This document shows, piece by piece, positions 1,497 to 59,846 of a stretch of 64,000 bases of DNA (its first letter is position 1; every line of letters begins with the position of its first letter). Source of the DNA: Lytechinus pictus (lineage: Eukaryota). A model generated the notes under the pieces. That model was not told where the DNA came from. It was given only the letters and a program-made list of their open reading frames with translations, and searched no databases. The translations under genes were made by a program, and so were the position numbers. The stretch is from the NCBI RefSeq assembly GCF_037042905.1, contig NC_087245.1, positions 6,202,001 to 6,266,000 of the forward strand. The letters run 5' to 3'.

Positions 1497-1832
1497 CTGT
1501 AAACATACAAAATGATTCACACAAGATCAAAATCAAATGCCAAACAGAATTGTTTTGTTGAAGACAGAACATACATGTGTAAATACGAACGGTTCATATA
1601 AGTGTGCATTGTTCATACAACTTTGGTGTATAATTTATTCCCATTCCATTTTCTACACATTTATGCATTTGTTGGTTAAAATTTAGTTCTGTCATGTCAT
1701 AATGAATGTGTTTGAGTTTTGATAGCAAGTGTCCCATAAGATTTAATTTTACTCTGAGAAATCTACAATGAAGTAAATGTAGCTAAAATATTATTAACAT
1801 ACCAAATAATAATCTGAATATTAAACCCCTAC

Positions 1833-4026
1833 CTTGACATTTCAACAAAGCTGAGCCCTCAGTCATATTCCAGACACGAACAGTAAAATCAGCTGACCCA
1901 GAAGCAAGTAAATCATCTGATAACACTAAGAGACAAGTAACAGCTTTCCTGTGACCTTCCAGGACCATATCAGGGCCACTTGGTTTGCATGCATATCTAG
2001 AGAGCTTGATGGATCCATTGCTATCACCAGAAGCAAGAGTCTGCACAGACCTTGCATGGGCAACCACTTTCATGTCATTGTTCTTATGAGCTTGGAATGA
2101 ATGAAGACACTCTTTAGAGGTGATGGACCAATGTCTGAAGAAACCATCCTGGCAACCGGTCAGTACTTCATCATCACTTTCAAAGAAGGAAAAGTTGGCA
2201 GTTTTAGGGTGTTCAAGCTTAGTCAAGAGCTGTCCATTATTGAGGTCCCAGATATAGACATTTGACCCTTTGTCTGATCCACCAATGGCCAGTGAACCAG
2301 TTTCATTGATCTGAAGAGAACTGACAGCATGGTTATCACCAGTCTCAAGTTTCCACATGCACTCACCGCTTGTGAGTTCAAACATTCCCAACAGCTGACA
2401 ACCAAAGATAACAAATCTATCATCACGACTGATGGTAAGGGATAATGCTCCAGATGCCTTGCTTCCTGCCCTGATTTGCAGAGTATGTATGAGCTCTGCA
2501 TTTTCTTCATCCCAAACATTAGCCATGGGATAGTCATTGGCATCTTTGCACGCTGTTACTATTACATCTCCTTTGCCAGTGCAAGCAATAGCCTCTACTC
2601 TTGATGGGTGACCTGCCAAAGATGTCTTCAACTGTCCTCCAGGAGGGATCAGACATGCTCCTCTAGGAATGATTAAAGGATGCTGGGTAGTCCTTACCCA
2701 GGACTTAGCTCCTTCAAGTAATTTTTTTATATTGGGGTACTTGTCCATCAGGTCATACATCCTCCCAAGAAGCTGGCCTGCTAAACAGAAAGGGTCTTCT
2801 TTCAGATTACTACCAGACAAGTACAAGGCCTCAAGAAGAATGCCACTTTCTTCATCGAATGTGGAGAAATCATTCACAAGTTCTAGAAAGCTAAACGCTC
2901 TTATCTTGGTCAGAATCCACTCAAAGTTGTACATGATATGCTGCACCATACCCTCAGGGATCCCATTCACCATTTCACACTGCATCAGATGGAAAGGTAG
3001 CTCATGCAGTTTTCTGAGATTGAAGACATTCTCCCCAAACATAAGGGGTTGAGGTGAGACAAGACGGTCTGCATTTGGGAAATCCTTTTTGCGCCTCTCA
3101 AGTCGAATTGGCCTGATTTTCCCTCTGCTGTATTCTCCAAGAAACATATCTGCAAGAACTTTGTGTCTGTCCATTTTGGACTGTGGGTCACCAAGGTAAC
3201 GCCTTTCTGCAGTTTCAATGAACTGTCTATGATACCAAGCAATCACTGTTTTTCCACCAGCCTGTCGTTCTGTAATGAATTCCCCGATGTCTTGATGCAA
3301 CCTCTTCCAGACTGAAGGCGGAATACGAACAACCCCTTCCACTGGAGGATCCCAGTACTGATAGACATCATTGAGAACTTTATCATCACAAGATAGGACA
3401 TCCTCTATCTCTGCTTCAGTTAGACCACTCTTTCCTGCAGTGAGGTAACCCAGTGCATGAGCTACAAAGATAAGCCCATGACGATCTTCAAGATCCTGAA
3501 ACATCACATTGATAGCATCCACTACAGTGGTAGGAAGTTTAACATCTTCTACTGACTTGTACGATGGCCATGTTACGAACTCCTCAAACAGTAGCTTAAG
3601 AAAGAGTGGCTGAGGGCTCTTACTGAAAGCATCAGTTACCACTTTTACTTGTTGATCATTTAACCTCCGTTTTCTTTCTTTCAACCAGCCATTCATGATG
3701 GCAATTCCATTCTCTTCACCAACAACTTCCATGCAAATATAGCACCTAGGATCTGTCAGGGTCTTCTTGATGTTGTCCAGAATGTTGTGTTCATGAGGCA
3801 GCATAGACACAACAACATGGACATGTTCTGGGAGTGTTTTTAGAAGCCAGTTCATCTTATGGGCGTTGTTATTGGAACTGAGCTGGTCAATACTGTCAAA
3901 CAGCAGCAGGAGTGGTTTATCTTTGGTTGGAAGCATTTCAATCAACTTATTGAAGAGCTGAACCAGTTCTGAGAAATCTCTTGAGTGGTTGGATAGGAGC
4001 GGTGGTGCACCATAAGCATAGCAAAT
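1833..4026 (-). CDS. NWD1/NWD2-like gene, coding exon 7 (NACHT Walker B, helical region, first WD40 repeats)
   Basis: Contains the 720-aa ORF; LLLLFDSIDQL Walker B, GLTEAEIEDVLSCDDKVLNDVYQYW, WYHRQF, NLRKLHELPFHL motifs typical of NWD proteins; GH...WD repeats; AG at 4028-4027, GT at 1832-1831. Confidence 0.93.
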
Positions 4027-4550
4027 CTGTTGAAAACAAAAATTGTATCAAAGTCAGTCACATTCACTTGCAGGCTTACTTACTTTCTGAAACTTTCCAT
4101 ATCATGTCCTAAATCTGGAGAAGTTACAAAACTGATTAAATGAATATCAAACTTGGATCTCCATTATTATAATAAGTATAATGCCTGTCTCCTTCCAATC
4201 CATAGGTGTCATGTTATGCAATCATCCCATGATTGCTATAGGTACCTGGTAAGATGAAATTTCTCATTAGCAGGGGACATTATTAGACCCTCTCAGTTTA
4301 CGAAAGTGCAGAAATCTTTGCGCTTCTTGAGGATAATTTTTTATAATATTGCGCATTATTAATGTCAATCTTGAGATGGCAAAATAATTGATTACCTAAC
4401 TGTTCATTGTTTGTCACATGCTTCCAAAGTGCAGATTCGATTATCAAAATACATATTCAGATGGTCAACTTAATTCCAAAGCATTGGAATTGTATTTTAG
4501 TCTTTTGCTGATTATATTATTGTTGAACCTGCCTTTAATATAATGTATAC

Positions 4551-5137: not shown

Positions 5138-6074
5138 TTGATCTATCAAATTATGTATAAGAGCACAAGGCAAACAGCATACATGATAAAGGAAGGTACT
5201 ACTATATATTAAATCACAAGTACAGACTTGGGGGGGGGGGCTTATAAAGAGTTCAGTTTGTTAAGAATTCATGCTTCATTTGCTTCACTTGCACATATAT
5301 ATTTCAAGCTAAATGATAAAAATTCTATCTGGTACTGTGTATCCCGTGGGCGTTATCTGAGCAATTTGCTAAATCATTATATACCACGCACAACTACGAA
5401 TTTAAGTGTTTTAGTCAAACTTTATTCTTTGTGATACATCCCCCTATTTATCAAATTTTTAATAATCCATGGTATTTTTATAGCATTATTTCCACTTGGG
5501 TAAATGCTCAAGGGACTTTAAGAAGCAAGAGAGGAAGACAAAATGATCAAGAGAAATCTCTCACACATATGGATGAAAAAAAATCAGGGTCGGTCCAGCA
5601 TGAGCAAAAGCTTGTTCCTATCAAATAATATGTAGAGAGCATGGGGGAAGGGGTTGATGCACCGCTTCAATTAGTCAAAGGTCTTCTGATTCCCCCTCCA
5701 TGACCCACTCACTGACAATGATGTTTTGTGTTTTTTATGTTTTCCCCCATTCTTGCTAAATAGAAGAAGAATAGGAGAAGAATGACCTTGCCTTTAAAAG
5801 ATACAAATTTCAGACCTGATGACATGTCACACAACCATAAAACTAAACTACATTCAGACATGATAACACAGATCATAAATGTATTTTTTTTAATAAGGAC
5901 AAAGTGTCACCTTGTCCTTACCCTTAACAAAATAACTTCACTTTCATGTATATTCCCAGAAGAAGTGGGCAAGTATTTATTAACATACACATTTTTTTTC
6001 TATTTTCCTTTGTCATAAGAAATGCAATTTTATTTTATTTTTCCTTCCAATTTATATTGCATGAATATCCATAC

Positions 6075-6965: not shown

Positions 6966-7113
6966 TCATCAGTTTGAATGTCAGTAAACTTAGACAAAGC
7001 ATCTTTCTGCTTATAAGATGGTTCCATATCTTTGAAGTCTCTGGTGAAGAAGATACAAGTATCTTCAACATTGGTATTGTCTTTCAATCCATGACGAATT
7101 TCCTCTTCAGTCA
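6966..7113 (-). CDS. NWD1/NWD2-like gene, coding exon 4
   Basis: TTACAG| acceptor, |GTAAG donor; joined to exon 3 it gives MSVTEEEIRHG, the SVTExE motif of NWD proteins. Too short for the ORF track. Confidence 0.88.
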
Positions 7114-7196
7114 CTGTAAAAATTATTAAACAGAAGACTTTTGAACAGTACTTCAGCTACATGTACATTCTTTCCAATATTAGAGAGTCAAAAGGG

Positions 7197-7235
7197 GCCT
7201 AAGCTTTCGATCCTAGCAGAATCTTCGTCGGAGGC
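7197..7235 (-). ncRNA. Minimal type I hammerhead ribozyme motif (variant core) at the Penelope 3' end
   Basis: Minus strand reads GCCT-CCGACGA-A-GATTC-TGCTA-GGATC-GAA-AGCT-T-AGGC: stem I, core, stem II, GAAA, palindromic stem III. Confidence 0.75.
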
Positions 7236-8163
7236 AAAATGACAAACATATAAAGTGGAACAACCATAATATAGACCACAAACATTCAACAGCAACACTA
7301 GAAACGAGGAGACAAAAGGGGCATTAGTGAGAAGAGATGACCAATCAGGTTAATGAAGGGGATGAAAGAAAAGGAGTGGGCAGACACAAAGAGAAGTGGG
7401 TGTAGGCCAAAGAAAGACATCAAGCCAAGAGGGATTAAAATGTGAGGCAGGCAACATCAAACAGGATCTGGAACAAAACAGTGATAGAGGGTATGAGGAA
7501 GAGATGAATAACAAGAGAATTAGTGAGAGGTGGGTCAAACAGGTAACAAAGAAAGGCATAATAAACTGGTGCATAAGAGTGGGGAAAAGGGAAAGAATGG
7601 GGAACAACTGATATGGTGCAAAATACATAAGTATGTATGATGGAGTAATAAACTAAGAGAAGTAAGTGAGTGTAAAAATAAACCTGTAAGAGTAAAAGTA
7701 TGTAAATATTTCCAAAAAGGAATGTATATGAAAAGAAAATATATATAAATATATATACAAAGGGTGTAACTGATATAGTAACCCGCTGGGTGTGAGGGGA
7801 AAAAAACAGAAGACTATATATATATAAAAAAATAATTAAAAAAAATGGAAGGGAAGCAAATTGCCTAAAAGGGTAAAAGCAAATTAAGAAGCTGATGCTG
7901 TATGAGAGAGGGGGTGTATTAAGGAAAAAAAAACATAGTAAACATGAAAATAAGCAAAATAAATAAGAGGTAAGTGAGTGGAGAGAGAAAAAAAATATAT
8001 ATATAATAATAATAATTATAATAACGTCTGAATAAGGGAAGGAAAATTGGAGCTGAGCTAGTATGAGATATGGGAGGAAAGTGGAGGCAGAAAGTATAAT
8101 GTAACTAATCTAAAAGAGCTGAGGGGAAAAATTATATGTGTACACAAATGGAAAGTGGATAAA

Positions 8164-8665
8164 TCAGTCGTTTCCCTCTTGAATGTTCAGGCCATGAGGT
8201 TGGATGGTGCGAAGTCGTCTCATCCAGAACTTCTCTCTGCTGGTACGGACTGAGTCGGGACGGGTACCTAAAGATTCGATGCCCTGTAGCATCATGTCAG
8301 TGATGGAGTGGTTGGGAAGGTTAAAATGGCGGCCAACTGGAGTGTCCAGCTTTGCTGTGTTGACGGTGGATCTGTGCCCGTAGAATCGTTTCTTGAGTGT
8401 GGTCTTGGTTTCCCCTACGTATTGTACCCTACAAACTCTGCAAGTGATGAGATATACAACATTAGTGGTAGTGCATGTGATGTTGCCCTTGGTTTGGTGA
8501 GAAAGGCTGGTAGAGTTGCTGGTGAGTGTCGCCCTCGTGAATGTGTATTTCACATATAATACACCTGTTGCTGGTGCATTTGAAGGTGCCATGCTGTATG
8601 GGAGAAGAATGGTTAGTGAGGGAGGGCAATTCAGCACGAACAATGAGGTCCCTGAGATTCAGTGG
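8164..8665 (-). pseudogene. Penelope-like GIY-YIG endonuclease fragment, frameshifted
   Basis: RPLNLRDLIVRAEL...CTSNRCIIC in one frame, then ITCTTTNVVYLITCRVCRVQYVGET..LKKRFYGH...REKFWMRRLRT.QPHGLN in another. Confidence 0.88.
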
Positions 8666-9104
8666 TCTTTCCAATATTGACAGTTGATTGGGACAACTTT
8701 ATGTTTCTAAAAATAAAAAAAAGTTTTTCTTTCATTTCAGGTTATTTTTCTCCCCTCTCAGTTGTATGAATTAAATTAGAAATTAAAATCTACGTACAAG
8801 TCAAACTCTGACATTTGGTTCATGTTACAGAACATAGACAATTTTCAAGTGATTTGAAAGTTCAAAACTATCTAGCTTTCTCATTAATCTTGAGATGTCA
8901 TTCAAACATGATGATCTTTATTTAAATAAAAATAAAAGCTTACAAGAAATTCATATATTTATAATTATGATAACACCATTCATGTATAATGCATATCATA
9001 TCAACATCCATATGCGCTTCCAAAATACATATATTATTACACTGGTTTTAGAACACAGTCTCTAATAACACGGAAGCATTTCAAGGAATACATTCATGCC
9101 ATGT

Positions 9105-9226: not shown

Positions 9227-9301
9227 TATGATATAAGTGTTTCTATTTTACATACCTCTACAACTATTCAGTTGATAGACAGAATGATAACCATGACTCA
9301 C

Positions 9302-9662
9302 CAGACATAACAAGTTCATGCATTTCCTCCTCAGTGAAGACACCTTCTTGTCTAGCCAAGGTGGCAGCCAAATCAAACACCTTCCTCATCTTATCAAAGA
9401 CCACCCACCACTTCTGTCTTGTCTCACTCTGCTTCTGTGAATCACTAGAATCATAGTAGTCAGGAAGGTGGACAGTGATAGGCTGCAGTACGTAGACAGG
9501 TGGAATAGCATTGGTGTCTTCTACATACCACTTCCGTATGAGATCTACATCTTCTGCCGAGATGCTGTCATCTTTTGAGACAGTATCCATGAGCTTTTCA
9601 AACATGCCTGACGAAATGGTGGCATTGAGTGGCCGGTAGCCATACTTATCACCCAAGATACC
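9302..9662 (-). CDS. NWD1/NWD2-like gene, coding exon 3
   Basis: GILGDKYGYRPL...WYVEDTNAIPPVYVLQPI; TGTAG| acceptor, |GTGAGT donor. Confidence 0.92.
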
Positions 9663-9883: not shown

Positions 9884-10156
9884 CCGGTGTGTTAGCTCAG
9901 TTGGTAGAGCGTCCGTCTCACAACCGGGAGGTTAGGAGTTCAAACCCCGGCCGCGTCAGACCAAAATACGTTAAAAGATGGGAGTTGCTGCTACCCTGTC
10001 TGGCGTTCAATGATTAAAGGGATACGGTAGAGCCTTGTCTGTCTGGTGCTGAAGAGTGGCTGCTGGGCCCACAATCAATTGGGCAAAGGAAATTTTCAGA
10101 GTATTTCATTTCATGTCTATTTCAAACAATAAAATAAAGATTTTCATCTTTTCATC
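9884..10156 (+). mobile_element. tRNA-derived SINE (MetaSINE-like core)
   Basis: A box TAGCTCAGTTGG, B box GAGTTCAAACC, then CGTCAGACCAAA body and TTTCATC-repeat tail. Confidence 0.75.
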
Positions 10157-10232
10157 AATAAACAACGTAAAATATTTAGAAAACACATGTACATGTACAT
10201 GTATTTGAATTATATCAAATGAAACTTCTTAC

Positions 10233-10435
10233 CACGAAGTAAGGTCCCTGAGACATACGTTTACACCTGTCAATTTCATTAAGGCACAGGAATGATGTCA
10301 GGTGATCTGCTGTGGCACTATCTCGTACACCCCATCTCATATCAACCACTTCAAACTCAAGCATCTTTTCATGGCAGTATCTACCAAGCTCTGGAAACAC
10401 CTCCCTGATTAACTTATTCCTTTCCTCCTTCATGT
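10233..10435 (-). CDS. NWD1/NWD2-like gene, coding exon 2 (DUF4062-like domain)
   Basis: DMKEERNKL...FPEL..YC...FEVVDMRWGV...CLNEIDRC...GPYFV; TTTAG| and |GTAAG sites. Confidence 0.92.
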
Positions 10436-10873
10436 CTAAAGGGAGAAAGATCATTGCACAAAGTGATGCCATGAACAGTCTGCACACACGTTTCAGACTC
10501 TGGTCTTACATATTGGCCTACATGTTTCAAATTGTAATTTTACTTACTAAGTTTTATTTACATTCATGTACTTCATTATTTTACTTGATTTTATGTGCTT
10601 CTGGGGCTGGGCCCTGTTGCATTAAAGTAATACTAAAACGTAACTAACAAAGTAAGAAGGCTCAACAGCCAATCAAAATCAAGGAATTCATGAATTATAC
10701 CATTGGACAGTAAAGTTACTAAAGCAACAGAGACCTGGTCTCATGATTTGACTTTGATCATGAAAACCACCTATATGTACAGTATAAACCTATCCCAAAG
10801 GGTCAAAATATCTCCAGTACACGAATACTGATAGCCAGTAAATGTAACATATCGATAAATGGTTAACATTAGA

Positions 10874-11575: not shown

Positions 11576-11690
11576 CTTTGCTCTAATGGATGAAAGAAAA
11601 ACAAGTGGAATGCCTCTGGCGGTCTCACCTGCATCACGCGATTCAATATAGCAGCAGTGCTGACTTTGAAAACTACTATAACTCACACAA

Positions 11691-12900
11691 GATGTTCAGT
11701 GATACTTGGTTACACTTATTTCCACGTTTTATGAACTAGACCAATACACTTACAGAGATATGATGGTAATTCAACAAATACCCCCAATGTGGCCAAAGTT
11801 CATTGACCTTACATGACCTTTGACCTTGATCATGTGACCTGAAACACGCACAGGATGTTCAGTGATACTTGATTACTCTTATGTCCAAGTTTCACGAGTC
11901 AGATCCATAAACTTTCAAAGTTATGATGGTAATTCAACAGATACCCCCATTATGGCCAAAGTTCATTGACGTTTGACCTTGGTCATGTGAACTAAAATGC
12001 GCACAGGATGTTCAGTGATACTTGATTACTCTTATATCCAAGTTTTATGAACTAGACCAACATATTTTCAAAGTTATGATGGTAATTCAACAAATACCCC
12101 CAATTTGGCCAAAGTTCATTGACCCTAAATGACCTTTGACATTGATCATGTGACCTAAAACACGCACACGATGTTCAGTGATACTTGATTACTCTAATGT
12201 CCAAGTTTCACGAGTCAGATCCATAAACTTTCAAAGTTATGATGGTAATTCAACAGATACCCCCATTATGGCCAAAGTTCATTGACCTTTGACCTTGGTC
12301 ATGTGAACTAAAATGCGCACAGGATGTTCAGTGACACTTGATTACTCTTATATCCAAGTTTTATGAACTAGACCAACATACTTTCAAAGTTATGATGATA
12401 ATTCAACAAATACCCCCAATTTGGTGAAAGTTCATTGACCCTAAATTACCTTTGACCTTGATCATGTGACCTGAAACACGCACAGGATGTTCAGTGATAC
12501 TTGATTACTCTAATGTCCAAGTTTCACGAGTCAGATCCATAAACTTTCAAAGTTATGATGGTAATTCAACAGATACCCCCATTATGGCCAAAGTTCATTG
12601 ACCTTTGACCTTGGTCATGTGAACTAAAATGCGCACAGGATGTTCAGTGATACTTGATTACTCTTATATCCAAGTTTTATGAACTAGACCAATATACTTT
12701 CAAAGTTATGATGGTAATTCAAAAAATACCCCCAATTTGGCTAAAGTTCATTGACCCTAAATGACCTTTGACCTTGGCCATGTGACGTGAAACTCATGCA
12801 GGATGTTCAGTGATACTTGATTAACCTTATGTCCAGGTTTCATGAACTAGGTCCATATATTTTTTAAGTTATGATGACATTTCAACCTTAGGTTAAGATT
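11691..12900. repeat. Tandem array of alternating 163/153-bp units (316-bp dimer)
   Basis: GATGTTCAGTG anchors at 11691, 11854, 12007, 12170, 12323, 12486, 12639, 12802. Confidence 0.95.
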
Positions 12901-12916
12901 TTGATGTTGATTCTCC

Positions 12917-13757
12917 CATGGACCCATTAGGAATGGACATTCAACGAATCCCCTCCTTTGGCACAAAGACCGTCGCCGCTAATCCTTTTATAAACAGAGC
13001 GCTGGCAGCTGACACCCATCAAGCCGGTCGTAATAAACGCTCTCACCATGCTCTCACTGATGGACAGCGGAAATCAATTGTACGCTGCTCCTACCCATTG
13101 CGATGTTGTTCGTTCACTTTATCAACAGCAACGCACAGCAGCGAACGTTAGCGCTATGAAAATGATAGCAGAAACAAGAAAACAGGCGTGCATAAACATA
13201 TTTTTTACGTACATCGCTCACAACCGAAAATGAAATGCATTGACATCACCTTGCAGATCCGTATATCTATGGCAAAAAAGCACTTGAAATTCGACGAAAA
13301 AACGTTAAAATTTCATCTTTTTCGGACAGTATTGATGTCGATAGTAGCGCTTACCTTCGGTCAGAAGTTGATTTTCATTTGGGCATAAAATTCCACAGGA
13401 TTGATGAAATTTAACAGGATTTCTTTTGATGGACAGACGACAATCGCACATTATAGACAGCCTAAAATAATGTACTGAAAAACCGGATATGAATTGCGCA
13501 TTGCATTCTAGGTAATGTAGGGACTTTCCCTTTTGGCAATCGGGGCTAAAACATGACCGCCTTTGGTCGAAAGAGGGCCAGTGATCGATCGGTGACGATC
13601 AATGGGCGAAAGGAGCTTGTGTAAACAATCGCCCCGGGCGGTGGTCGTAAAAACCGCGTAAAGAGAAAGTTAAGGGTTAAACAGCGATTTTGACAGCTGG
13701 AAACAGGTGGTGGTCATAAAATACTCTCGTTGAATGTCCATTCGTAATAGGTCCATG
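12917..13757. mobile_element. Non-autonomous TIR transposon, CATGG ends, 7-bp TSD (P/Galileo-like), nested in the HINE
   Basis: About 31-bp TIR CATGGACCCATTAGGAATGGACATTCAACGA / TCGTTGAATGTCCATTCGTAATAGGTCCATG; ATTCTCC on both sides. Confidence 0.85.
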
Positions 13758-14694
13758 ATTCTCCCAACATGGTCTAAGTTCATTGACCATAAATGACCTT
13801 TGACATTGGTCATGTGACATGAAACTCAGGCAGGATGAAATCTAGTAATACTAGATTTACCTTATGGCCAAGTTTCATGAACTAGGTCCATATACTTTCT
13901 AAGTTATGCTGTCATTTAAAAAACTTAACCTTAGGTTAAGATTTGGTGTTGACGCCGCCGCCGTCGTCGGAAAAGCGGCGCCTATAGTCTCACTCTGCTA
14001 TGCAGGTGAGACAAAAATCAGAAAAACTGAAATATGTATACAAAAAAGGTCCTTTTGGTGCAAGTTCAATTCAATAAAGTGACACAATCTCGTTCCTTTT
14101 CATGAGGATATCCTGTTTAAAAATTGAAACATTGAGATGGGAACAAGAAAAATTCCAGCCCTATCAAAGAAAGTAAACAAGTCCCTCAGGGCACTAATCC
14201 TCCTACGAACAGAAACCACATCAACAACTCTTGTAGACATTTTGAAGGAGTGAATTGTTCATCTTTTTCGCTCGCTCCCCCTCTCCGTCTCTTTGTCATC
14301 TCTCTCTCTCTCTCTCACACACACACATATCATTTATCTCTTCCTCTCTCTCTCTCTCCTCCCTCTTACTCTGTCAAAATAAAAACATAAAGACAAACCA
14401 AACATTAACGATGCTCTAATAGTGGTCTAGGAATTAGACTATACTATACTATACTGTAGAAGTATGCAACTCCGTGAAACATTGAGATCCAAGTTTGAGG
14501 CGAAATTTGGAACCCAATGAGTCAATATGCGTTTGTTCGTAAGGACATGAGAAAAGAGCTCGTCAAGAAAAGGAGACTGAATAAATTATCTTGGCTTTTA
14601 CTTGGTCCTTTTCAGCCATTCAAAGTAATATCTAGGGTAACTATCAATTTAAAGACCCAGACCGGACCCAAAAATGAAATTGACAAATTATATA

Positions 14695-14757
14695 GGTCAT
14701 TTTGCCTCCGACGAAGATTCTGCTAGGATCGAAAGCTTAGGCCCCTTTTGACTCTCT
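14695..14757 (+). ncRNA. Solo Penelope-derived hammerhead ribozyme insertion
   Basis: 14696-14757 is the exact reverse complement of 7182-7243; flanked by AAATTATATA at 14685-14694 and 14758-14767. Confidence 0.8.
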
Positions 14758-14978
14758 AAATTATATACCAATCGAAAGCTTATAAGTTACTAAATAGAGC
14801 AATGTATGCTTTATGCATTTTCACCACTTCCCAGCTGAGTATTTTGCTTAAGAATATTCCAATTATCAGGCTTCGAACCCGGCTTAGAAAATAGGCTTTA
14901 TTGTGCTTTTCACCTGCCTCGAGACCGTGACGTCATGTTGTGTAAGAAGCGTCGTGATTCCATAGGTTTGTACACAGA

Positions 14979-15070
14979 ACAAGTGGAATGCCTCTGGCCG
15001 TCTCACCTGCATCACGCGATTCAATATAGCAGCAGTGCTGATTTTGAAAACTACTATAACTCGCACAAGA
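14979..15070 (-). mobile_element. HINE terminal fragment
   Basis: Near-identical to 11601-11692 (ACAAGTGGAATGCCTCTGGC..GTCTCACCTGCATCACGCG). Confidence 0.8.
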
Positions 15071-18000
15071 TAATAAACCATAAATGTCCAGAAATTCGTT
15101 TTTGAGTCTTGTGATCTTGTAATGGGATGAGAGAAGCCTGTGTGTGATGCCGCGATGTTTGATCTAATTTTTAAGTTTGACCATGTTTCACCTTGAATTT
15201 TTATTCATTTCTAAAAAAATTTAGTTTTCCAACAATTTTTTGATTATATTTAAAAAACCAAAAATATAAAGATTTTTGGGGTTAAAAGTTTTTTCTTTCT
15301 TTCATTTTCTTTGCTTTTTATCCTTCTTTCTTCATCCTTCTGTCCTTCCTGCTATCATACTAATTATTTATAATCACATAATAAATTTCATTATTTGTAA
15401 AATAAGAATTTGTATCTAAATTGTTCTTCAAAATGGCATCGCTAACCGGATGTACGTCATACATAAGCGATTCAAGGCATTGTATTTGCGTTGTGTACAT
15501 TTGGATCGAGGGATCTACATGACATCGGTCTGGTAAGAAACCTTTATTTTTACATATTTTGATTCAATATTTTTTTAAACCTTCTTATGCTTTAGGCGTA
15601 GGAAAGTTAGAGAATAATAAAATCATGATCATTTTTGTGATTTTTAATAAAAAAGATGGATTTCCTAGTTTACAAATACAAGTATCTCTTATATATGGGA
15701 GGGGATTCAAGACTCCATGATGAAGAAGCATAATGTCAAATTTTTCTAAAAGACATCATCATGGAGTCCTCAAGACTGACTAAGTAACGTTAGATCGAGA
15801 CTGGGGTAGGAGAGAACTTTTTGTTTTTTATTTTACTTTTAGGTTCAATCAATTCTGTGCCTCGATGTCAGGATACTGCCACACGATAGACCTTCATGGC
15901 TTCATCCATATAATCGTGGTAAGTGCATAATTTCTGTTTTCACAATTTATTTTGCTAGATATTTTGACCATAATCTACCCTAGTCCCGTGAGTATGGGTA
16001 AATAGACGGTGAGCAGGTGAGCTCCTAGGCGACGGCCCAAGCGGGCCGGTGTCCTAGGTTTTTTGGCCCGGGTACCGGCGGTCCAAAACGACTAGTTGAT
16101 TAGGGCCGCCAGTACAAAACGACTAGTCGATCGGGCCCCCCGGATCCAAATGACTGGTTGAAATTTTTGCCGAAACGACAGGAGAGCCGCCGTTTGGTTC
16201 CGTATTCGTCAGAATGTAGCAAATGTAGTAAATATATTCTATAAATATCTGCTTTGGTGAAATGTTTCAATATATATATTGATGTGATTTTTAATGTAAT
16301 TTCATCCCAATTATTTACATAATTCGGTCTTTAATTAAAAATATTGGTACATCTAGATAAGAGGTATTTCAGCCTCGTACGTTAGGTACCGGTAACATTT
16401 TTGCGCACGCGCAGCGCTGCACTGCTTGGACAGTTGATTGACACGATACGACGCAGCCCGGTACCGCGCTGTACTGTGTTAACGAGTGCCTATCCCTTAA
16501 GTTGCCCTTCTTAAATGCCCGACCAGTGCCCGATTTCCTCTTACTGTTCTGAGAACTTTTATTTCTTAAAAATAATTTCAAAATGTTATGCCCCCATCAC
16601 TTGCCCTTTTTCATCTGCAGAGTGCCCCTTTTTACCTTTGATCAAGCGCCCCATTTGAATATGTCGTTATTCTAATAAATGCCTCTTTTCTTTTCTAGAT
16701 TGTTCAAAATGTGCAGTTTGTTAATGTAAAGTATTTGCTATTAGCGCACTCTTATGCAGGGGCACCTGAACTGGGAAAAGGGGGCACCCCCCCCCCCCCT
16801 TTGTGTCAAGGAGCATTAGACTTTTTACCTTAGGGTGCCCTGGGGTAGGCAAGGTGTTGAAAATAATCTGTTTTCACCCAACCCCTTTTGACAATTGAAG
16901 AGCTTAATTTAAAAAAAAAGGCTAAATCCACTTTTGACCAAATATATTTTAAAATATAAATTTGTTTATCTTTGACACGGGAATCAAGTGCACCATATCG
17001 CATTCCAAAATTTTTGGAAGTTTGGCAAAAATTGAACACAAATTGAGGTTTTTTTAACAGAAGGAGCTAAATCCAAAACAGTTTTATTCCAAAAGGAGCT
17101 AAATCCACTATGTTCACTGAGGATTTCTTGATTTAACAACATTAGCTAAAGTTATGGTTTAAATGTTTGTTATGTACCTGTTGTACATATGAGTCTACAT
17201 CGTCTGCAAATTTTGATATACATAACAGAATTTTACTATTTTTATGAATATTTTTGGATTTAGCTCCTTTTGGAATAAAACATCGAAATATCACCGTCTT
17301 CGGAGATTTCAAAAAATTTCCCCCAATTTTCAATGAATAAAAATCTGAAAAATTGCTAGACATGTTTAAATGTGCAAAAAGGCACATTCGACTAAAATTT
17401 TATTCCAAAAGGAGCTAAATCCATGAAAATTTAAACCATCAAAATTCCTGAAAAATTGAAATTAGTCGCTAGATTTTATAAACATGATTTAATTTATCTA
17501 GTATTGTGATAGCATCATCATATATATCAAAATAGTATATATCAAAATCAGATATTAAGTAGCAGGGGACAAGGGAATATTAAAATTAAATTAAATATTA
17601 AAAGTAAATAAAAACCCTTGATTTACTGAAGATCGCTTTATATAGATATAGCTCCTTTTGCAATAAAATTCTTCATATATTAGTCTGAACAGGGATGTGT
17701 TAGGAATAGGAAGGATATGAAACTCACGGGTGTTTGATATTCAATGTGGCGTGCCGATATTAACCTTTCGGATCAGAATGGATTATGACGGAGCGAAATA
17801 TCATTTACGCTTTTTTTCTCTAAAAGCATCGTTTTTCATCAATCTCTTTTGAAAATTTCAAATTAGTTGAAGACAGCAAATAAAAAGCCCTTGTGATGTT
17901 TTCATGCCAACATGATATAAAAGAATCGTGAAAAAAAAAGACAAATTTAATTTTATAACTACTTCCAAAATTGACAAATTTCAGCATTTTCCGACAATTT

Positions 18001-28110: not shown

Positions 28111-28992
28111 CCCGGGGGGGGGGGGGCACTTACATTGACGAGTGGATACCAATTGTGCGACCAAAAAAAAAACACGTAAAAATGATGTCATTTTCAAGAT
28201 AGGGCACGTTACGTACAAAAACACAACAATAATGAAAAAAGGGCCCTATCGATCTGTTTACAGGAAAGCTAGTTACGTGTTTAGGGTCAAATTTGCGGGG
28301 ATGATAAAACAAGATTCAAATGTTTTATAAATTAAAGGATATTTGCCCCAACACTAACGTGTTTAGAGTCTGTTGCGCGAGGTGTTGAAGGCCGGGGCCG
28401 TACTAATAAACCAAATGTTGTGTGAGGTAAAACCGTCGACGACCGCGACGACATAATAAAATATCGCTGTACTTGCATGTTTAGGGGTTCATTTCAGGAA
28501 TACTTTCAAAGAGTATATCGTTTTTTTTCCAATACTAATTATTAAGGGGTGCATATGGAAAATACGTGTTTAGTGTGCCTTTCGAGACCCCATGTTCGCG
28601 CATGGTATCCACTCGTCAATTAGTCCAGATTGGACCTTGTTGTTTGGAAGTGCCTTTTCCCAAAGCTAACATAGAGGGCACATGTCTCCCAATCTCTAAT
28701 CAGCGCCAATCCACTCATCTTCCCTCCCCACTTGTACTTGTACTGGACCTTGGTGGGGAGGGAAGATGAGTGGATTGGCGCTGATTAGAGATTGGGAGAC
28801 ATGTGCCCTCTATGTTAGCTTTGGGAAAAGGCACTTCCAAACAACAAGGTCCAGGAAGATGAGTGGATTGGCGCTGATTAGAGATTGGGAGACATGTGCC
28901 CTCTATGTTAGCTTTGGGAAAAGGCACTTCCAAACAACAAGGTCCAATCTGGACTACTCGTCAATGGACTCGTGCCCCGGCCCCCCCCCCCC
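28111..28992. mobile_element. MITE with CCCGGGG...GCACT terminus, right TIR split by a younger insertion
   Basis: CATTGACGAGTGGATACCA (~28133-28151) pairs with TGGTATCCACTCGTCAAT (28603-28620), which resumes after 28965. Confidence 0.7.
28621..28956. mobile_element. Fold-back TAG...CTA element with 9-bp TSD and a duplicated arm
   Basis: TAGTCCAGATTGGACC / GGTCCAATCTGGACTA; CTCGTCAAT at 28612-28620 and 28957-28965; 93-bp tandem duplication starting 28761 and 28854. Confidence 0.9.
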
Positions 28993-29126: not shown

Positions 29127-29700
29127 AGGACAAGACCACCCGAACAAAAGTTGATTTGAATGAAAAGTCCAATAAGCCGAACACTGAAAACTATTTCATA
29201 AAAATCGGATGTATTATAGAAAGTTATGACATTTAAAAGTTTTGCTTTCTAGTAATTCACAAACCAGTTCAGTTATATGCACATCCTAGTGGATATGCAA
29301 ATGAGGAGAATGATGACGTCATCCACTCACTATTGAAATAGGTAATATTTCTCCTCATTGTCAAGTGAAACAACAATTAATTCCTCCCTGAACATGTAAA
29401 ATGAGCATATTATGATTCAGTCAAGTTAATTGGCCCTTATTGTCAAATTAATCTATGTGTAAAAAAAATGAAATATTGTATAATTCAAACAATAAAAAAG
29501 AAATAGTGAGTGAGGGACATCATCGACTGTCTCATTTGAGTTGCATTATTGTTATGTGAAAAAATTATTGATTGAAATTTTTAAATGTCATAATTTTCTT
29601 ATTTTACATCCGATTTTGATGAAATTTCAGCACTTTACTAGTTTGATTTTTTTATATTTATTCACGGTATGTTATGAATCAGTTATTTTACAGGTGGAAC
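29127..29700. mobile_element. Kolobok-like MITE, degraded copy
   Basis: Similar to 56036-56628 in inverted orientation; right end approximate. Confidence 0.65.
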
Positions 29701-31566
29701 CTTGATACATTAGTTAGCTATGATAGAGGCCCGTTTATGAAATAAAGTGAGTTATGTTACCTCACTGTATTCACTGCAAGAAGCAATAAAATTTCGGAAT
29801 AGGCCCTACCTATTACCACTAAATGCACGGCAGTCAAATATTTCTGAAAATCTGATGATATCTATTTTTCTTTATTTATTGAGCAGTTCGGGGTGGGGTT
29901 CGATCGCTTGTCACTTCGAAAAAATAATATAAGGAGAAAACATGACCTAACATGCACTAATTTTCATCTACATAATTGTACTGCTTTTCCGTCCGTTTTC
30001 TTAACCCCTTCCTGCCTTTTATGTAGGCCTATATATTCTATTCATATTCATATATCTTTTTGTTATTTTAGGAGACCTTCCCTCACAAGTCCTCCCATTC
30101 CATATTATACATGCTAATTATACTCTGTGTATGAAGCATGCGGCCTACTCTACGATGTAGGCCTATACTCATTGAAAGGAATAAAATGTATAATTCAAGT
30201 GAACTGAACTGAATCATAAGAAATAGAACATAATTATGGGCCTCCGGCAGATCATAAAAAAATTCTATAAAGCTGCAAGCAAGCAAAAACGAGCGAGCCA
30301 AAATTTTGACATTTTTTATATGAAGCTAATTTTGACATTGTAGGCCTATTCATTTCACCATTTTTCCTTTCTTTTTTTCTCTCTTTTTTCCTTGGTCGTG
30401 GAAATTTGGAGGTTCATTGCTCAAAGCCCCTACCCCATCTATACACCAGAGCTATAAAAAAAAATGCATGATTTTTTGGTGAAAATTATCTAAACAACAG
30501 TTATGAAACCTAGATCTCTGTGTAACTAATCGATATTAGAACAATGCCTCACTGTTCACCAATGTTCTTAACTTGATAGAAATGCAAATAGAAAGTGGTT
30601 CACGTTTTGTGAGTATGTGCCAGCTAGTGAACAACGAAATTATGCGTTTGCTTTATCAACAAATTGCTTTTAAATCAAGAGTCTGTTTTATGAGTTTAAC
30701 ATTCAAAATTTGAATTGAAAGCAGAAGTTTCTTAAATAAACATAGAAAACAAAGGTGGTGATATTTTTGGGGTTTTATGCTCTTATTGTTCTTTCAATTT
30801 GCATTGTTCATTATGTCCAATCTATTTAGCATTTTTAGTGAACCATGAATTTGGCATTATATGTCAGAAAAAAACTATTGTTTTCATGTTTGTGTGGTTC
30901 TAGAAACATCAAGGTAACATTCAAACGCATGTTTACAGTATATTTATCGTACTGTCACTGAGAGTTTTCTCAGAAACCCAAAAATATAGTTTGTGGAGTT
31001 ATTTTTTTCTTTATTATGCATGTAGTACACCTTCTATGTTGTATATAAGTTACTTCTTCCCAGCTTTTTCAGTTTTGTCATTTTTTATGTAAAGGGACAC
31101 TTCAGGCTGAAAATAATACGATTAAATTTGAACAGATAAAGAAAAATCAGACAAACAAAACACTTATTGATCAAAATCGGACAAGGAATTACAAAGTTAT
31201 ATGACATTTTAAAGATTTTATTTGGGTGAAACAGTTCTATGCATGTCTTCATGAATATGCAACGAGCAAATTAATGATGTAAAATCCCCATTTGTTCTTT
31301 TGTATTTTATTACATGCTTATTTAAAAATTTTAATTTAAGAATGAAAAAATAATTATAATTTCATGGTATAACATTAGCAAAAGGAAAAGTAGGGATATA
31401 TGACATCATGCAGCCTACCTTGAATTGAATATTCATGACGATGAGCATAAAACCGTCTTCACAAAATACTTCTAAACATTTTGAACATTCAAGAAATTCA
31501 TTTTTTGTTTTCAGAATTTGATGGAATTTTCAGCATTTTGGTTTGTGTATGGACTTTATCATGTAA

Positions 31567-32137
31567 AGGTCAAGTCCAATAATGTTGATTTGAATAAATG
31601 GAGAAAAATCAAATTAGCATAATGCTGAAAATTTCATCAAATTCGGATATAAAACAAGAAAGTTATGTCATATTAAAGTTTCGCTTATTCACAAAATAGA
31701 GATATGCACAATTCAGTGACATGCAAATGAGATAGTCGATGATGTCCCTCACTCACTATTTCTTTTTTTTATTGTTTGAATTTAATACAATATTTCCTTT
31801 TTTCCTTCTTCTTACAGATTTGGCAATAAGGGCCAACTTGACTGAACCACATAGTATTAAACAATGCTAATTCCACATGTTCAGGGAAGAATTATCGTTG
31901 TTTCACTTGACAATGACTGAGGAGAAAATTATAATATTTTATATAATAAAATACAAAACAAATAGTGAAGGCATTTGCATACCCATCAGGATGTGAATAT
32001 AACTGTTTTGTGAAATCAAGCGAAACTTTAAAATGTCAAAACTTTTTTATATTTTACATCCGATTTTGATGAAATTATGCTTGTTTGATTTTTCTCTTTT
32101 TATTTGAATTAACTTTTTGTTGGAATGGACTTGTCCT
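31567..32137. mobile_element. Kolobok-like MITE
   Basis: AGGTCAAGTCCA / TGGACTTGTCCT|TTAA; colinear with 56036-56628. An older relative lies at ~31091-31560. Confidence 0.75.
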
Positions 32138-32149
32138 TTAAAGTCATGT

Positions 32150-32631: not shown

Positions 32632-33065
32632 ATAAGTGGAGCACCTCTGGCAGTCTCGCCTGCATTACGCGATTCAATAAAGCAGCTGCAGTGCTGACTT
32701 TAAAAACTACTATAAATTATTAACAAAAACACCATTCATATGTGATATACAACGTTCATTGACCCTAAATGACATTTGACCTTGATCATGTGACCTCAGA
32801 CTTGTCAATGATACTTGATTAACCCTATGTCCACATTTCATTAAGTATATCCATAAACTTTCAAAGTTATGATGGCAATTCAACAATTACCCCCAACATG
32901 GATGAAGTTCATTGACCTTAAATGACATTTGACCTTGGTTATGTGGTCTGAAACTCAAAAGGGATTTTTAGTGATACTTGATTACCATACTCTTTATGTC
33001 CAAGTTTTATTAACTAGATCCATAAACTTTCAGTTATGATGGCGATTCAACAAATACCCCAAACA
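32632..33065 (-). mobile_element. Diverged HINE copy with about 2 tandem units
   Basis: Same terminus (AAGTGGAGCACCTCTGGCAGTCTCGCCTGCAT) and same repeat unit as 11601-12900. Confidence 0.8.
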
Positions 33066-55438: not shown

Positions 55439-56035
55439 CTAAAAAAGGAAGAAAAAAAAAATGAAAACCAATGAGTAGTACAGCATCATCTCTCCCATGG
55501 TTGGATAGTTGTAATCATATTTTGCTTTAGGGAAATGAGATATTTTTTCACTTCTCTCATAGTTTTGGATGTTTATCAATTATGCCAACAATATTTTCTC
55601 CTTAATATCACTTTAATAATAAAGCTGTCATCAAGTACTTTTGTAGGTTATTGTTGATCAATTTTGAGTTATATATATCATTTTAAAGCTTATGATGTGC
55701 TTTTTCAAACTCAATAAAACTCAAAAATTAATTTTGGGCGACCTATTGTTGGTTTTAGGGTGGCTGGTCACATATTAGCCGATACTCAGAGTTACCAACT
55801 ATCGATACTAATATCCTGGGTAACTTTGCTGGGACATGCACGTCTGGTAGCAGTCAGCGAATGGGCCGATCAATGCTACAGTTAAGAGACAGCTCGGCTC
55901 TGCTGATTTCTCTAAATCTAATAAAACTTCTTCATAGCTTGATCAATCATGGACTGATTTCGACGATTAACACTTTGACACCTGAGAGAATTTTAGAGCA
56001 GTAGTGCGTTCCTTACGCAGGGAAATGACAATTAA

Positions 56036-59665: not shown

Positions 59666-59846
59666 AAATGCATGCTGTGAAGGTTACAAATAAATTCAAG
59701 TTCAAAGTTTTGAATTATTACTTGGCAATGCATAAAGTACATGTATAGTGCATGATAAACAATGTCTTAGAAGTATAATAAGTATTTTCAACACATAAAA
59801 ATAAAGCAAATTGACAATTGAATCAAATAGAAAGGTAATATTATAC

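What the first reader, a model, noticed from the sequence alone, without database searches (positions are those of the whole stretch)
14685..14767. Solo 63-bp hammerhead-ribozyme insertion with its own 10-bp TSD
Seen: 14696-14757 is identical to the last 62 nt of the Penelope-like element 7.5 kb away (opposite strand), is flanked by AAATTATATA twice, and removing it restores CAAATTATATACCAATCGAAAGC. Known: Penelope-like elements carry minimal hammerheads. Inference: this is a retro-insertion consisting of almost nothing but the ribozyme, either an extreme 5' truncation or a tiny non-autonomous ribozyme-only mobile unit. Perfect identity implies recent activity.
Basis: partly seen in the sequence, partly recalled or inferred. 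Interest (0 to 1): 0.75.

Follow-up and report, generated by a model that had tools for sequence, protein, structure and literature searches.

The report
Solo end-repeat of a Penelope-like retroelement
This 63-base insert is a real, recent mini-insertion made only of the short repeat that ends an active Penelope-like jumping gene, one of over a hundred such mini-copies in this animal genome, and its hammerhead-like fold departs from the standard ribozyme core at one position.

Summary
Window 14696-14757 is 100% identical to the last 62 nt of a 5'-truncated Penelope-like element (PLE) at 7180-8667 on the minus strand. It is flanked by AAATTATATA twice. DNA contigs from three studies and 144 RNA reads carry the exact form without the insert (skips 73 bases, with 10 ambiguous letters).

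The 62-mer is the terminal direct repeat of a ~4.3-kb PLE with a 909-aa RT plus C-terminal GIY-YIG ORF. The family has at least 1013 near-identical copies.

It is not a random truncation. At least 134 copies start at this same nucleotide. The background is about 1-2 starts per nucleotide inside the repeat and about 8 per nucleotide just upstream. These starts carry G-rich extra bases. All 30 of 30 sampled copies of this class are solo units of ~62 nt or ~120 nt; the longer form adds the optional PLE "tail".

The repeat fits the published PLE minimal-hammerhead architecture except that core U4 is C (98 of 100 copies). Rfam finds no hammerhead. The predicted cut site is not a preferred 5' end.

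My best reading (0.58) is that the cDNA starts at an RT start site close to the RNA 5' end and runs off that end. This is an ordinary by-product of an active PLE, with some mechanistic interest.

The parts
14685..14694 (+). Left copy of the 10-bp target-site duplication AAATTATATA
   Evidence: Read. The joint that skips 73 bases has 10 letters fitting either side.
14695..14695 (+). Extra G at the 5' junction. The parent element has T here, so the G is either untemplated or was added at the RNA 5' end.
   Evidence: One search shows ...gtttGTCATT in the parent copy. In one search, all 32 RNA reads covering 14695 read T. Of 134 copies with a non-T base here, the first 100 listed are G 74, A 19, C 7 (hand count).
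14696..14757 (+). 62-nt terminal repeat (R, a minimal pLTR) of the PLE family. This is the inserted unit.
   Evidence: 100% identical to window 7243-7182(-). The same 62-mer lies at both ends of a 5'-complete copy on contig C16. Its first 28 nt occur 1013 times in the genome.
14704..14742 (+). Minimal-hammerhead-like motif. Helix I is GCCT (14704-07) paired with AGGC (14739-42). The core is C-C-G-A-C-G-A (14708-14), with C at 14709 where U4 should be. An unpaired A sits at 14715. Helix II is GATTCT (14716-21) paired with AGGATC (14725-30), with loop GCT. GAA follows at 14731-33, then the palindrome AGCT at 14734-37, then H17 = T at 14738.
   Evidence: My descriptor, built from the features listed in PMC4209133, hits only this site and its twin at 7235-7197(-) in the window. 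It gives 0 hits in 100 dinucleotide shuffles and 0 hits when U4 is required. The MFE fold gives the same helices but with z = 0.08. Rfam gives no hammerhead at E<=10.
14758..14767 (+). Right copy of the target-site duplication. Its first one or two A's could instead be element-derived, because many copies end ...CTCTCTAA.
14624..15082 (.). Host high-copy repeat into which the unit inserted
   Evidence: Depth jumps from about 30-100 to 10^4-10^6 in three DNA runs. 14978-15071 is 97% identical to 11600-11693 (D6).
7180..8667 (-). 5'-truncated copy of the same PLE family: end of the RT-EN linker, the GIY-YIG endonuclease, about 0.9 kb of 3' UTR, and the terminal 62-mer at 7243-7182. It has no tail.
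   Evidence: GIY-YIG hit for 8164-8658(-). Full-length relatives align to 8667-7178. Sequence read.

Best explanation
The 63-bp block is a solo copy of the 62-nt terminal direct repeat of a young, probably still active, endonuclease-bearing Penelope-like element, plus one extra G. It was inserted by target-primed reverse transcription into an AT-rich site and made a 10-bp duplication.

Shown. At least one complete element has the order 62-mer, ~58-nt tail, 5' UTR, 909-aa RT/GIY-YIG ORF, ~1-kb 3' UTR, 62-mer, with or without a tail. Insertions end at one of two alternative 3' ends, after ...CTCTCT(AA) or after the tail. This matches the two internal RT start sites and the optional tail described for PLEs. 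A large class of copies begins exactly at the first base or two of the 62-mer, often with extra G's. In my sample these are all solo units of ~62 nt or ~120 nt. Many are paired head-to-head.

Inferred. The element's RNA starts at the first base of the 62-mer, as expected if the transcription start lies in the pLTR with an internal promoter, as in Drosophila Penelope. The RNA therefore carries an RT start site only 62 nt (or ~120 nt) from its 5' end, as well as the one at its 3' end. When the RT primes at the 5'-proximal site it runs off the RNA end after 62 nt, adds G-rich extra bases, and the mini-cDNA is integrated. On this reading the unit is the shortest complete product of the element's own RNA. 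It is neither a random truncation nor an independent element.

The 62-mer folds on paper into the PLE minimal-hammerhead architecture, but with C at core position U4 throughout the family. I infer it is kept as an RNA or protein-recognition structure, not as an efficient self-cleaver.
For: Insertion and duplication: (exact 73-base skip with 10 ambiguous letters, in 10 contigs from 3 DNA runs and 144 RNA reads).

Family: the 28-mer occurs 1013 times against 0 for the control. 41 of 44 scored matches are 100% identical. 7 of 74 rows have a stop-free open frame of 909 aa. The ORF has RVT_1 and GIY-YIG and a C-x5-C-x2-C linker.

Terminal repeat: in the C16 copy the 62-mer lies at joined positions 1007-1068, followed by the tail and then sequence continuous with the bodies of two other copies. 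It lies again at 5250-5313.

Tail: 14 of 32 printed copies are followed by the same ~58 nt. Similarity stops after 59-66 nt in 4 of 4 extended loci. One 62-mer+tail unit is flanked by an 11-bp repeat, counting one G that could equally be the 62-mer's own first base (one search scored 10).

Discrete 5' end: 9 of 30 loci picked only by 63-mer similarity end at 62-65 nt. 134 copies have a non-T base before GTCATT and 69 have a non-G before TCATT. By contrast only 13 copies have an R-anchored break in the 15 nt before the predicted ribozyme cut. About 27 of 100 listed breaks are spread over positions -5 to -15 (hand count).

Extra G: G 74, A 19, C 7 among the first 100.

Solo nature: 30 of 30 loci end by element position ~127, split 14 without tail, 14 with tail and 2 complex. 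Only 39 copies carry the tail-to-5'UTR junction.

Target duplications: flanking direct repeats of 9-15 nt in 12 of 27 non-inverted solo rows, against 10 of 2000 shuffled flank pairs.

Head-to-head pairs include a perfect palindrome at the first base.

Literature. Two internal RT start sites define the tail, both DNA strands are extended, and ribozyme mutants still insert (PMC11167929, main text read). The transcription start lies in the upstream pLTR with an internal LINE-like promoter (PMC2377424, passages). The pLTR is sufficient in trans and solo pLTRs exist (PMC3846280, passages).
Against: No direct RNA 5'-end evidence: the one RNA run laid showed no place where many molecules begin or end. 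That library was ordinary cDNA and the reference was a solo copy.

Only 2 of the 39 5'-complete copies could be cross-checked by coordinates as starting at the 62-mer (C16:28192005 and C1:254711). Both have T, not G, before TCATT. They may have longer upstream partial copies or belong to a sister subfamily.

About half of the read depth has A at 14712. That subfamily is invisible to my exact patterns, so all counts are lower bounds for one subfamily.

A secondary zone of starts 5-15 nt upstream, at about 8 per nt, is not explained by a single start site.

The loci were selected with patterns that require G before TCATT, which biases the junction sample.

The hammerhead descriptor was written after I had seen the sequence. 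The fold is no more stable than shuffles (z 0.08).
Confidence: 0.58

Rival explanations
1. It is an ordinary dead-on-arrival copy. Reverse transcription started at the normal 3' end of a full-length RNA and stopped early, with a local hot spot of stopping or joining at this position.
For: PLE insertions are known to be heavily 5'-truncated (PMC8557442 passages). A continuum of lengths does exist here: 74, 82, 108, 143, 225, 277, 327, 470-595 and over 1500 nt. Breakpoints are scattered from -5 to -15. An earlier scan note on another genome reached this verdict for similar fold-back copies (e1-7788964).
Against: The spike is far above background. At least 134+69 copies start at two adjacent nucleotides, against 13 R-anchored breaks in a 15-nt stretch inside the repeat. 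G-rich extra bases are the mark of run-off at an RNA end (recalled from LINE-1 work), not of internal stalling. The same nucleotide is the 5' end of two 5'-complete copies. By the time the RT reaches the 5' strand of the fold, the structure ahead of it is already unwound (inference).
Confidence: 0.2
2. It is a solo repeat left by recombination between the two 62-bp (or 120-bp) terminal repeats of a once full-length insertion at this site, like a solo LTR.
For: The element does carry direct terminal repeats. Recombination would leave one repeat flanked by the original duplication. Solo pLTRs attributed to recombination or deletion are reported in a rotifer (PMC3846280 passage).
Against: Solos of this class number well over 100, against 39 copies with a complete 5' end, in a family whose copies are mostly 98-100% identical. 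That would require very frequent recombination across only 62 bp in a short time. Head-to-head inverted solo pairs with palindromic junctions cannot arise this way. The rotifer solos in print lacked duplications, whereas these have them.
Confidence: 0.07
3. It is a tiny non-autonomous, ribozyme-bearing mobile unit (retrozyme-like or SINE-like) that is transcribed on its own and mobilised in trans by the PLE protein.
For: It has discrete sizes of ~62 and ~120 nt and a hammerhead-like fold. RNA depth over the 62-mer is about twice that of its flanks. pLTR sequences suffice for trans-mobilisation (PMC3846280). Animal non-LTR retrozymes are reported to be homologous to pLTRs and to occur as solo monomers (bioRxiv 10.64898/2026.07.22.740005, passages).
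Against: I saw no substitution that marks solos as a lineage of their own; most match the parent's repeat exactly. There is no tandem array at this locus. I looked for no circular-RNA evidence beyond, which lists no back-joint within the unit among the joints shown. The core carries C4. No promoter of its own was identified. RNA reads over the 62-mer can all come from full-length elements.
Confidence: 0.08
4. Hammerhead self-cleavage of the element's RNA creates the 5' end of the unit.
For: Hammerhead motifs are proposed to process PLE precursor RNAs (PMC4209133). The unit does contain a hammerhead-like fold.
Against: The predicted cut, after ...GAAAGCTT at 14738, lies 19 nt from the 3' end, not at the unit's 5' end. 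Only 1 of 13 nearby breakpoints starts there. The core has C at U4. No hammerhead is found upstream of the unit in the 3' UTR or anywhere in a full-length copy. In the anole PLE, ribozyme mutants insert normally (PMC11167929).
Confidence: 0.02

Closest known systems
Canonical C-terminal endonuclease-positive Penelope-like elements (Neptune/Nematis-type linker), with pLTR, optional tail and inverted 5'-truncated partners
   Same: [quoted passage not shown] Partial tandem and head-to-head inverted copies. An optional extension at the 3' end. AT-rich targets with variable duplications. Heavy 5' truncation.
   Different: The terminal repeat of the 5'-complete copy examined is only 62 nt (120 nt with tail), not hundreds of bp. 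The tail is ~58 nt, against the 30-40 bp in print. No canonical hammerhead is found, although these are described as universal in C-terminal EN+ PLEs. I did not place the ORF in a clade by phylogeny.
Minimal type-I hammerhead ribozymes of metazoan PLEs (Cervera and De la Pena 2014, PMC4209133)
   Same: Helix I of 4 bp and helix II of 6 bp. An unpaired base between A9 and 10.1. A G10.1-C11.1 pair. A GAAA box. A palindromic 15.1-16.1 (AGCT) in place of helix III. Location in the PLE terminal repeat. Genome-wide occurrence as single motifs and as opposite-strand pairs.
   Different: The CUGANGA box reads CCGACGA, with U4 replaced by C in 98 of the first 100 listed of 1234 copies. Rfam models do not score it. 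Cleavage was not tested.
[quoted passage not shown] 2024, PMC11167929)
   Same: There are two alternative 3' ends separated by a tail. Both DNA strands appear to be used, which would explain the head-to-head pairs. Ribozyme catalysis is dispensable. A short RNA segment next to the hammerhead region is enough as template.
   Different: In PAc the start sites lie 111-118 nt inside the ORF and the hammerhead cut lies about 85-90 nt upstream of them. Here the start sites lie in untranslated sequence, and the hammerhead-like fold abuts the first site. The idea that a 5'-proximal site yields solo units is my inference and is not in the parts of that paper that I read.
Solo pLTRs and animal non-LTR retrozyme monomers
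   Same: These are short pLTR-derived, hammerhead-bearing units dispersed as single copies (PMC3846280; bioRxiv 10.64898/2026.07.22.740005).
   Different: The rotifer solo pLTRs quoted lacked duplications and were ascribed to recombination. Retrozymes are described as tandem units with active hammerheads; that they give circular RNAs is recalled. The units here are 62 or ~120 nt, flanked by 9-15-bp duplications, mostly identical to the autonomous parent's repeat, and carry C4.

Membership tests
Penelope-like element (C-terminal EN+) | Single ORF with a reverse transcriptase followed by a GIY-YIG endonuclease | tested here: met
   The 909-aa ORF of L070 hits RVT_1 (E 9.8e-09) and GIY-YIG (E 0.0015, below the curated cut-off). 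The window copy 8164-8658(-) hits GIY-YIG at E 6.3e-05, above the cut-off.
Penelope-like element (C-terminal EN+) | pLTR or partial-tandem organisation and adjacent inverted 5'-truncated copies | tested here: met
   The 62-mer lies at both ends of the C16 copy. There is an inverted 3' fragment upstream of L035. There are many head-to-head junctions.
Penelope-like element (C-terminal EN+) | Optional short tail extension at an end of the insertion | tested here: met
   A ~58-nt extension follows 14 of 32 printed copies and 14 of 30 solos. It ends after 59-66 nt. It is longer than the 30-40 bp in print.
Penelope-like element (C-terminal EN+) | Hammerhead ribozyme motif in the pLTR | tested here: inconclusive
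   The architecture is present but with C at U4. There is no Rfam hit in the window, the 3' UTR or a full-length copy.
Hammerhead ribozyme (PLE minimal type I) | Catalytic box CUGANGA | tested here: not met
   It reads CCGACGA at 14708-14714. My descriptor gives 0 hits with U4 required. C is found in 98 of the first 100 listed of 1234 copies, T in 1.
Hammerhead ribozyme (PLE minimal type I) | GAAA box, G10.1-C11.1 pair, unpaired base after A9, helix II of 6-8 bp, helix I of 4-5 bp, palindromic 15.2-16.2 | tested here: met
   All are present at 14704-14742. The descriptor gives 0 hits in 100 dinucleotide shuffles of the window. The features were taken from PMC4209133. The descriptor was written after I had seen the sequence.
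Hammerhead ribozyme (PLE minimal type I) | Self-cleavage after H17 | not testable with these tools
   There is indirect evidence only. The predicted cut is not a preferred 5' end (1 of 13). No excess of read starts was reported.
Non-LTR retrozyme | Tandem head-to-tail repeats of a hammerhead-bearing unit that give circular RNA | tested here: not met
   This locus holds a single unit with a duplication. The sampled units are solo or inverted pairs. Circular RNA was not specifically searched for. One place with a junction repeated 249 nt apart was not followed up.

The most novel reading that the evidence does not exclude
The solo 62-nt and ~120-nt units may be an in-vivo footprint of internal initiation on a terminally redundant PLE RNA. 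On this reading the RT can enter at a start site only 62 nt from the capped 5' end, makes a strong-stop-like mini-cDNA, tags it with cap-dependent extra G's, and integrates it, often from both DNA strands at once. The hammerhead fold that fills this segment, with C at the U4 position of the core, would then be kept as the RT's recognition scaffold, not as a ribozyme. If so, counting solo units would give a genome-readable measure of where PLE reverse transcription starts and where PLE RNAs begin.
Probability: 0.35. Interest if true: 0.6.

Novelty: new variant of a known kind. Interest (0 to 1): 0.4.

Why it matters
How PLEs transpose is still poorly understood. One in-vitro study proposes internal RT start sites and finds the hammerhead dispensable. 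This genome offers a natural test set: one young family with at least 1000 near-identical copies, a hammerhead-like fold with C in place of the conserved U4, two sharply defined 3' ends, and a sharply defined 5' end marked by extra G's. If the inference holds, it supports internal initiation and a transcription start in the pLTR in a distant invertebrate PLE. It also suggests that the ribozyme fold serves as a structure and need not act as a catalyst. For annotation, it shows that the many isolated minimal-hammerhead hits in animal genomes can be complete mini-insertions with target duplications, not decayed remnants. The single locus itself lies in another repeat upstream of a gene, and I saw no sign that it has a function for the host.

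Tried and rejected
Rfam was negative for hammerhead families in four scans: gathering threshold on the whole window, and E<=10 on 14600-14850, on 7100-8750 and on a full-length copy, L074+L076.

Thermodynamic folding of the 63-mer and of 111-nt contexts on both strands gave z-scores of 0.08 to 0.78, so there is no stability signal.

I first took the recurrent sequence after the 62-mer to be the 5' end of a tandem downstream element. I rejected this because similarity stops after about 60 nt and no RT ORF follows. It is the tail.

Hammerhead cleavage as the origin of the 5' end is rejected.

A search for RNA start sites with raw RNA reads reported none. This is not informative, because the library was ordinary cDNA and the reference was a solo copy.

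Whether this locus is polymorphic could not be decided. Contigs break at the host-repeat boundary near 14649 (table 8).

Cross-checking the 5' ends of the 39 5'-complete copies by coordinates resolved only 2.

A B-box-like string (GGATCGAAAGC) was noted by eye. With no A box it was not pursued as a Pol III promoter; the consensus is recalled. An initiator-like TCATTT at the start of the repeat was noted, but the observed ends lie 2-3 nt upstream of the A it would predict; the consensus is recalled.

Literature searches for 'Penelope-like' with 'hammerhead' and with 'solo' turned up no description of solo terminal-repeat insertions with extra G's in the papers I opened. Supplements were not read, and bioRxiv supplements are closed.
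Full report
1. The observation

The window reads AAATTATATA at 14685-14694 and again at 14758-14767, with 63 bases between them. The repeat finder pairs 7180-7250 with 14689-14759 as an inverted repeat (I8). BLAST gives 100% identity over 64 nt, window 7243-7180 against 14696-14759 (L005).

The partner is the 3' end of a 5'-truncated Penelope-like element (PLE). ORF 8164-8658 on the minus strand hits the GIY-YIG domain, and longer genomic copies align over 8667-7178. The base at 14695 (G) differs from the parent, which has T before GTCATT.

The pre-insertion form exists. Contigs of three DNA runs from three studies (4, 2 and 4 contigs) and 144 raw RNA reads join 14684 to 14758. They skip exactly 73 bases, with 10 letters that fit on either side. 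This is what a 63-bp insert plus a 10-bp target duplication predicts.

The flanks from about 14624 to 15082 are a high-copy repeat (depth table). The empty forms are therefore most likely other copies of that host repeat and not alleles. Whether this locus is polymorphic remains open.

2. The family

The window lies in an 812-Mb assembly. The first 28 nt of the unit occur 1013 times, against 0 for the reversed control. A 35-nt pattern that tolerates two variable core positions occurs 1234 times. Of 44 scored matches to the 63-mer, 41 are 100% identical.

A protein search with a 611-aa ORF from one copy returned 74 rows; 7 have a stop-free open frame of 909 aa. [quoted passage not shown] It also has a C-x5-C-x2-C motif in the linker, a motif that Craig et al. 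ascribe to Neptune-type PLEs (PMC8557442, passages). Three long copies are 97.8-98.8% identical to each other. RNA reads cover the 62-mer at about twice the depth of its flanks. The family is young and probably active.

3. Anatomy of the element

In the most complete copy I could read (contig C16), the parts lie in this order:
- the 62-mer;
- a ~58-nt segment (AATTTACTCC...TTTTTGCCA);
- about 170 nt more of 5' UTR, continuous with the bodies of two other copies;
- the ORF;
- about 1 kb of 3' UTR;
- the 62-mer again (98.4% identity between the two).

So the 62-mer is a terminal direct repeat.

The ~58-nt segment also follows the 3'-terminal 62-mer in 14 of 32 printed copies. There it ends in unrelated flanking DNA after 59-66 nt in 4 of 4 extended loci. 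One 62-mer+tail unit is flanked by an 11-bp direct repeat, counting one G that could equally be the 62-mer's own first base (one search scored 10).

This is the optional PLE tail. Frangieh et al. showed that it corresponds to the stretch between two internal start sites of reverse transcription (PMC11167929, main text read). Here the two 3' ends are ...CTCTCT(AA) and the end of the tail.

4. Is the 63-bp unit a random truncation?

No. Among 30 loci chosen only by similarity to the 63-mer, 9 end at 62-65 nt. The rest are spread over 74 to more than 1500 nt.

Genome-wide counts:
- 134 copies have a base other than the parental T before GTCATT.
- 69 have a base other than G before TCATT.
- As a measure of background, an equivalent anchored search for breaks in the 15 nt before the predicted ribozyme cut inside the repeat found only 13 copies. 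The same kind of search at the 5' boundary found 158.
- In the 100 listed rows, I counted by hand about 70 breaks within 0-3 nt of the boundary and 27 spread over -5 to -15.

So there is a spike of two orders of magnitude over the background inside the repeat, plus a weaker zone just upstream.

The base added at the boundary is G in 74 of the first 100 listed (A 19, C 7). This is far from what I assume for an AT-rich genome; I did not measure base composition. Runs of two or three G's are common. Extra G's at 5' junctions are the known mark of reverse transcription running off a capped RNA end (recalled from LINE-1 work and from the template-switching behaviour of retroviral RTs).

All 30 loci fetched end by element position ~127. 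Of these, 14 have no tail, 14 have the tail and 2 are complex. None continues into the 5' UTR. Only 39 copies in the genome carry the tail-to-5'UTR junction.

Flanking direct repeats of 9-15 nt are found in 12 of 27 non-inverted solo rows, against 10 of 2000 shuffled flank pairs. Several solos are paired head-to-head, one with a perfect palindrome at the first base.

5. The hammerhead question

Rfam finds no hammerhead in the window, around the unit, in the parent's 3' region or in a full-length copy, even at E<=10.

Cervera and De la Pena (PMC4209133, parts 1-2 read) define the PLE minimal hammerhead by these features:
- the boxes CUGANGA and GAAA;
- a short helix I (4-5 bp);
- a long helix II (6-8 bp);
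- an unpaired base between A9 and 10.1;
- a G10.1-C11.1 pair;
- a palindromic 15.2-16.2 in place of helix III.

The unit has every one of these at 14704-14742, except that the first box reads CCGACGA. A descriptor I wrote from those features finds only this site and its twin at 7235-7197(-) in the window when U4 is relaxed. It finds nothing when U4 is required, and nothing in 100 dinucleotide shuffles. The descriptor was written after I had seen the sequence.

C at this position is the family state: 98 of the first 100 listed copies, with one T and one A. U4 belongs to the uridine turn of the conserved core (PMC6155905, passages). That its substitution strongly lowers cleavage is recalled from classical mutagenesis and was not checked here.

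The predicted cut, after 14738, lies 19 nt from the 3' end and is not a preferred start: 1 of 13. As a canonical, demonstrably active ribozyme it is not supported. The ribozyme does not define the unit's ends.

6. Mechanism

These steps are shown:
- target-primed insertion with a 10-bp duplication;
- two alternative 3' ends;
- a discrete 5' end with G-rich additions;
- solo units of two sizes;
- frequent head-to-head pairs;
- the same 62-mer at the 5' end of a complete element.

These steps are inferred. The element's RNA begins at the first base of the 62-mer. This fits Drosophila Penelope, whose transcript starts in the upstream pLTR under an internal LINE-like promoter (PMC2377424, passages), and Chlamys-3 (PMC8557442). 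Such an RNA carries the RT start sites twice, once 62 or ~120 nt from its 5' end and once at its 3' end. Priming at the proximal site gives a mini-cDNA that runs off the RNA end. Priming from both strands of the cut target, as seen in vitro for the anole element, gives head-to-head pairs.

The hammerhead-like fold spans the whole unit. Its outer stem pairs the first bases with TGACT just before the start site. It may be what the protein recognises. I put this reading at 0.58.

7. Rivals

- A truncation hot spot (0.20) fits the known habit of PLEs, but not the size of the spike or the G additions.
- Solo formation by recombination between the terminal repeats (0.07) cannot make inverted pairs, and it would need to have removed most complete copies of a very young family.
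- An independent ribozyme-only element (0.08) lacks any lineage-specific mutation, tandem array or promoter.
- Ribozyme cleavage as the source of the 5' end (0.02) is contradicted by the position of the cut.

8. Weak points

- There is no direct RNA-end evidence.
- Only 2 of the 39 5'-complete copies could be checked, and both start at TCATT with a T before it.
- About half of the read depth belongs to a subfamily with A at 14712, which my exact patterns miss.
- The junction samples were selected with patterns that require G.
- Counts of letters in listings were made by hand.

9. Comparison and novelty

The thing is a member of a known kind. Isolated minimal hammerheads 'probably related to truncated PLEs' and opposite-strand pairs were noted in 2014. 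Solo pLTRs were noted in 2013. Solo retrozyme monomers related to pLTRs were described in a 2026 preprint.

What differs here is:
- a very short terminal repeat;
- a family-wide C at U4 in a C-terminal-endonuclease PLE, a group said to carry canonical hammerheads universally;
- a sharply discrete class of solo units with duplications and extra G's.

I did not find the last point described in the papers I opened (searches; supplements not read). Two earlier notes of this scan, on other genomes, describe similar short PLE tail copies. They agree with the ordinary part of this verdict.

10. Verdict

This is a real and recent insertion. It is an ordinary by-product of an active PLE with an informative anatomy. 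Interest 0.40.

Noticed in passing
window 11675-12922, also 13758-13920 and 32734-32984: An array of alternating 153/163-nt tandem units (a 316-nt higher-order period), with related single units elsewhere in the window. It is preceded at 11600-11693 by a segment 97% identical to 14978-15071, next to the solo insertion. It looks like a satellite-bearing transposon family.
   Followed up: no
window 14624-15082: The DNA that received the 63-bp insert is itself a very high-copy repeat that is transcribed. Depth is 10^4-10^6 in three DNA runs, and there are thousands of RNA reads over 14975-15082.
   Followed up: partly
window 28621-28956: Perfect (100%) 93-103-nt repeats in both tandem and inverted orientation, forming a long perfect palindrome-like block. 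This could be a very recent rearrangement or an assembly artefact.
   Followed up: no
window 59715-60600: A long array of an 8-nt unit, with more than 100 registered copies and occasional 12-nt steps.
   Followed up: no
window 9886-9958 (+): A tRNA-like sequence just above the Rfam gathering score (31.5 bits against 29). It lies between minus-strand coding-like ORFs; I did not decide whether it is a tRNA gene or a SINE head.
   Followed up: no
window 1783-4047 (-), 9264-9662 (-), 10215-10505 (-): A host gene of the NWD1/TEP1 type on the minus strand. The large open frame has WD40 propellers and the HTH_NWD1 domain. The truncated PLE copy at 7180-8667 lies between its coding-like ORFs, and the solo unit lies beyond its 5' side.
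   Followed up: partly
window 14712 (N7 of the hammerhead-like core): About half of the DNA and RNA depth reads A instead of C here. This indicates a sister subfamily that my exact-pattern counts do not include.
   Followed up: no
G000 C2:42467729 and C2:42467978: The tail-to-5'UTR junction of the element occurs twice, 249 nt apart on the same strand. This may be a short tandem of the 5' region, which would resemble a retrozyme.
   Followed up: no
window 29270-29630, 31480-32140, 56028-56636: Another dispersed repeat family with internal inverted arms (140-nt arms at 88% identity at 56028-56636), possibly MITE-like.
   Followed up: no
G000 copies listed (for example C1:40527177): The rare T variant at the U4 position (1 of the first 100 listed) gives the canonical CUGANGA reading. 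The C lies in a CpG, so this may be simple deamination and not a retained active form.
   Followed up: no
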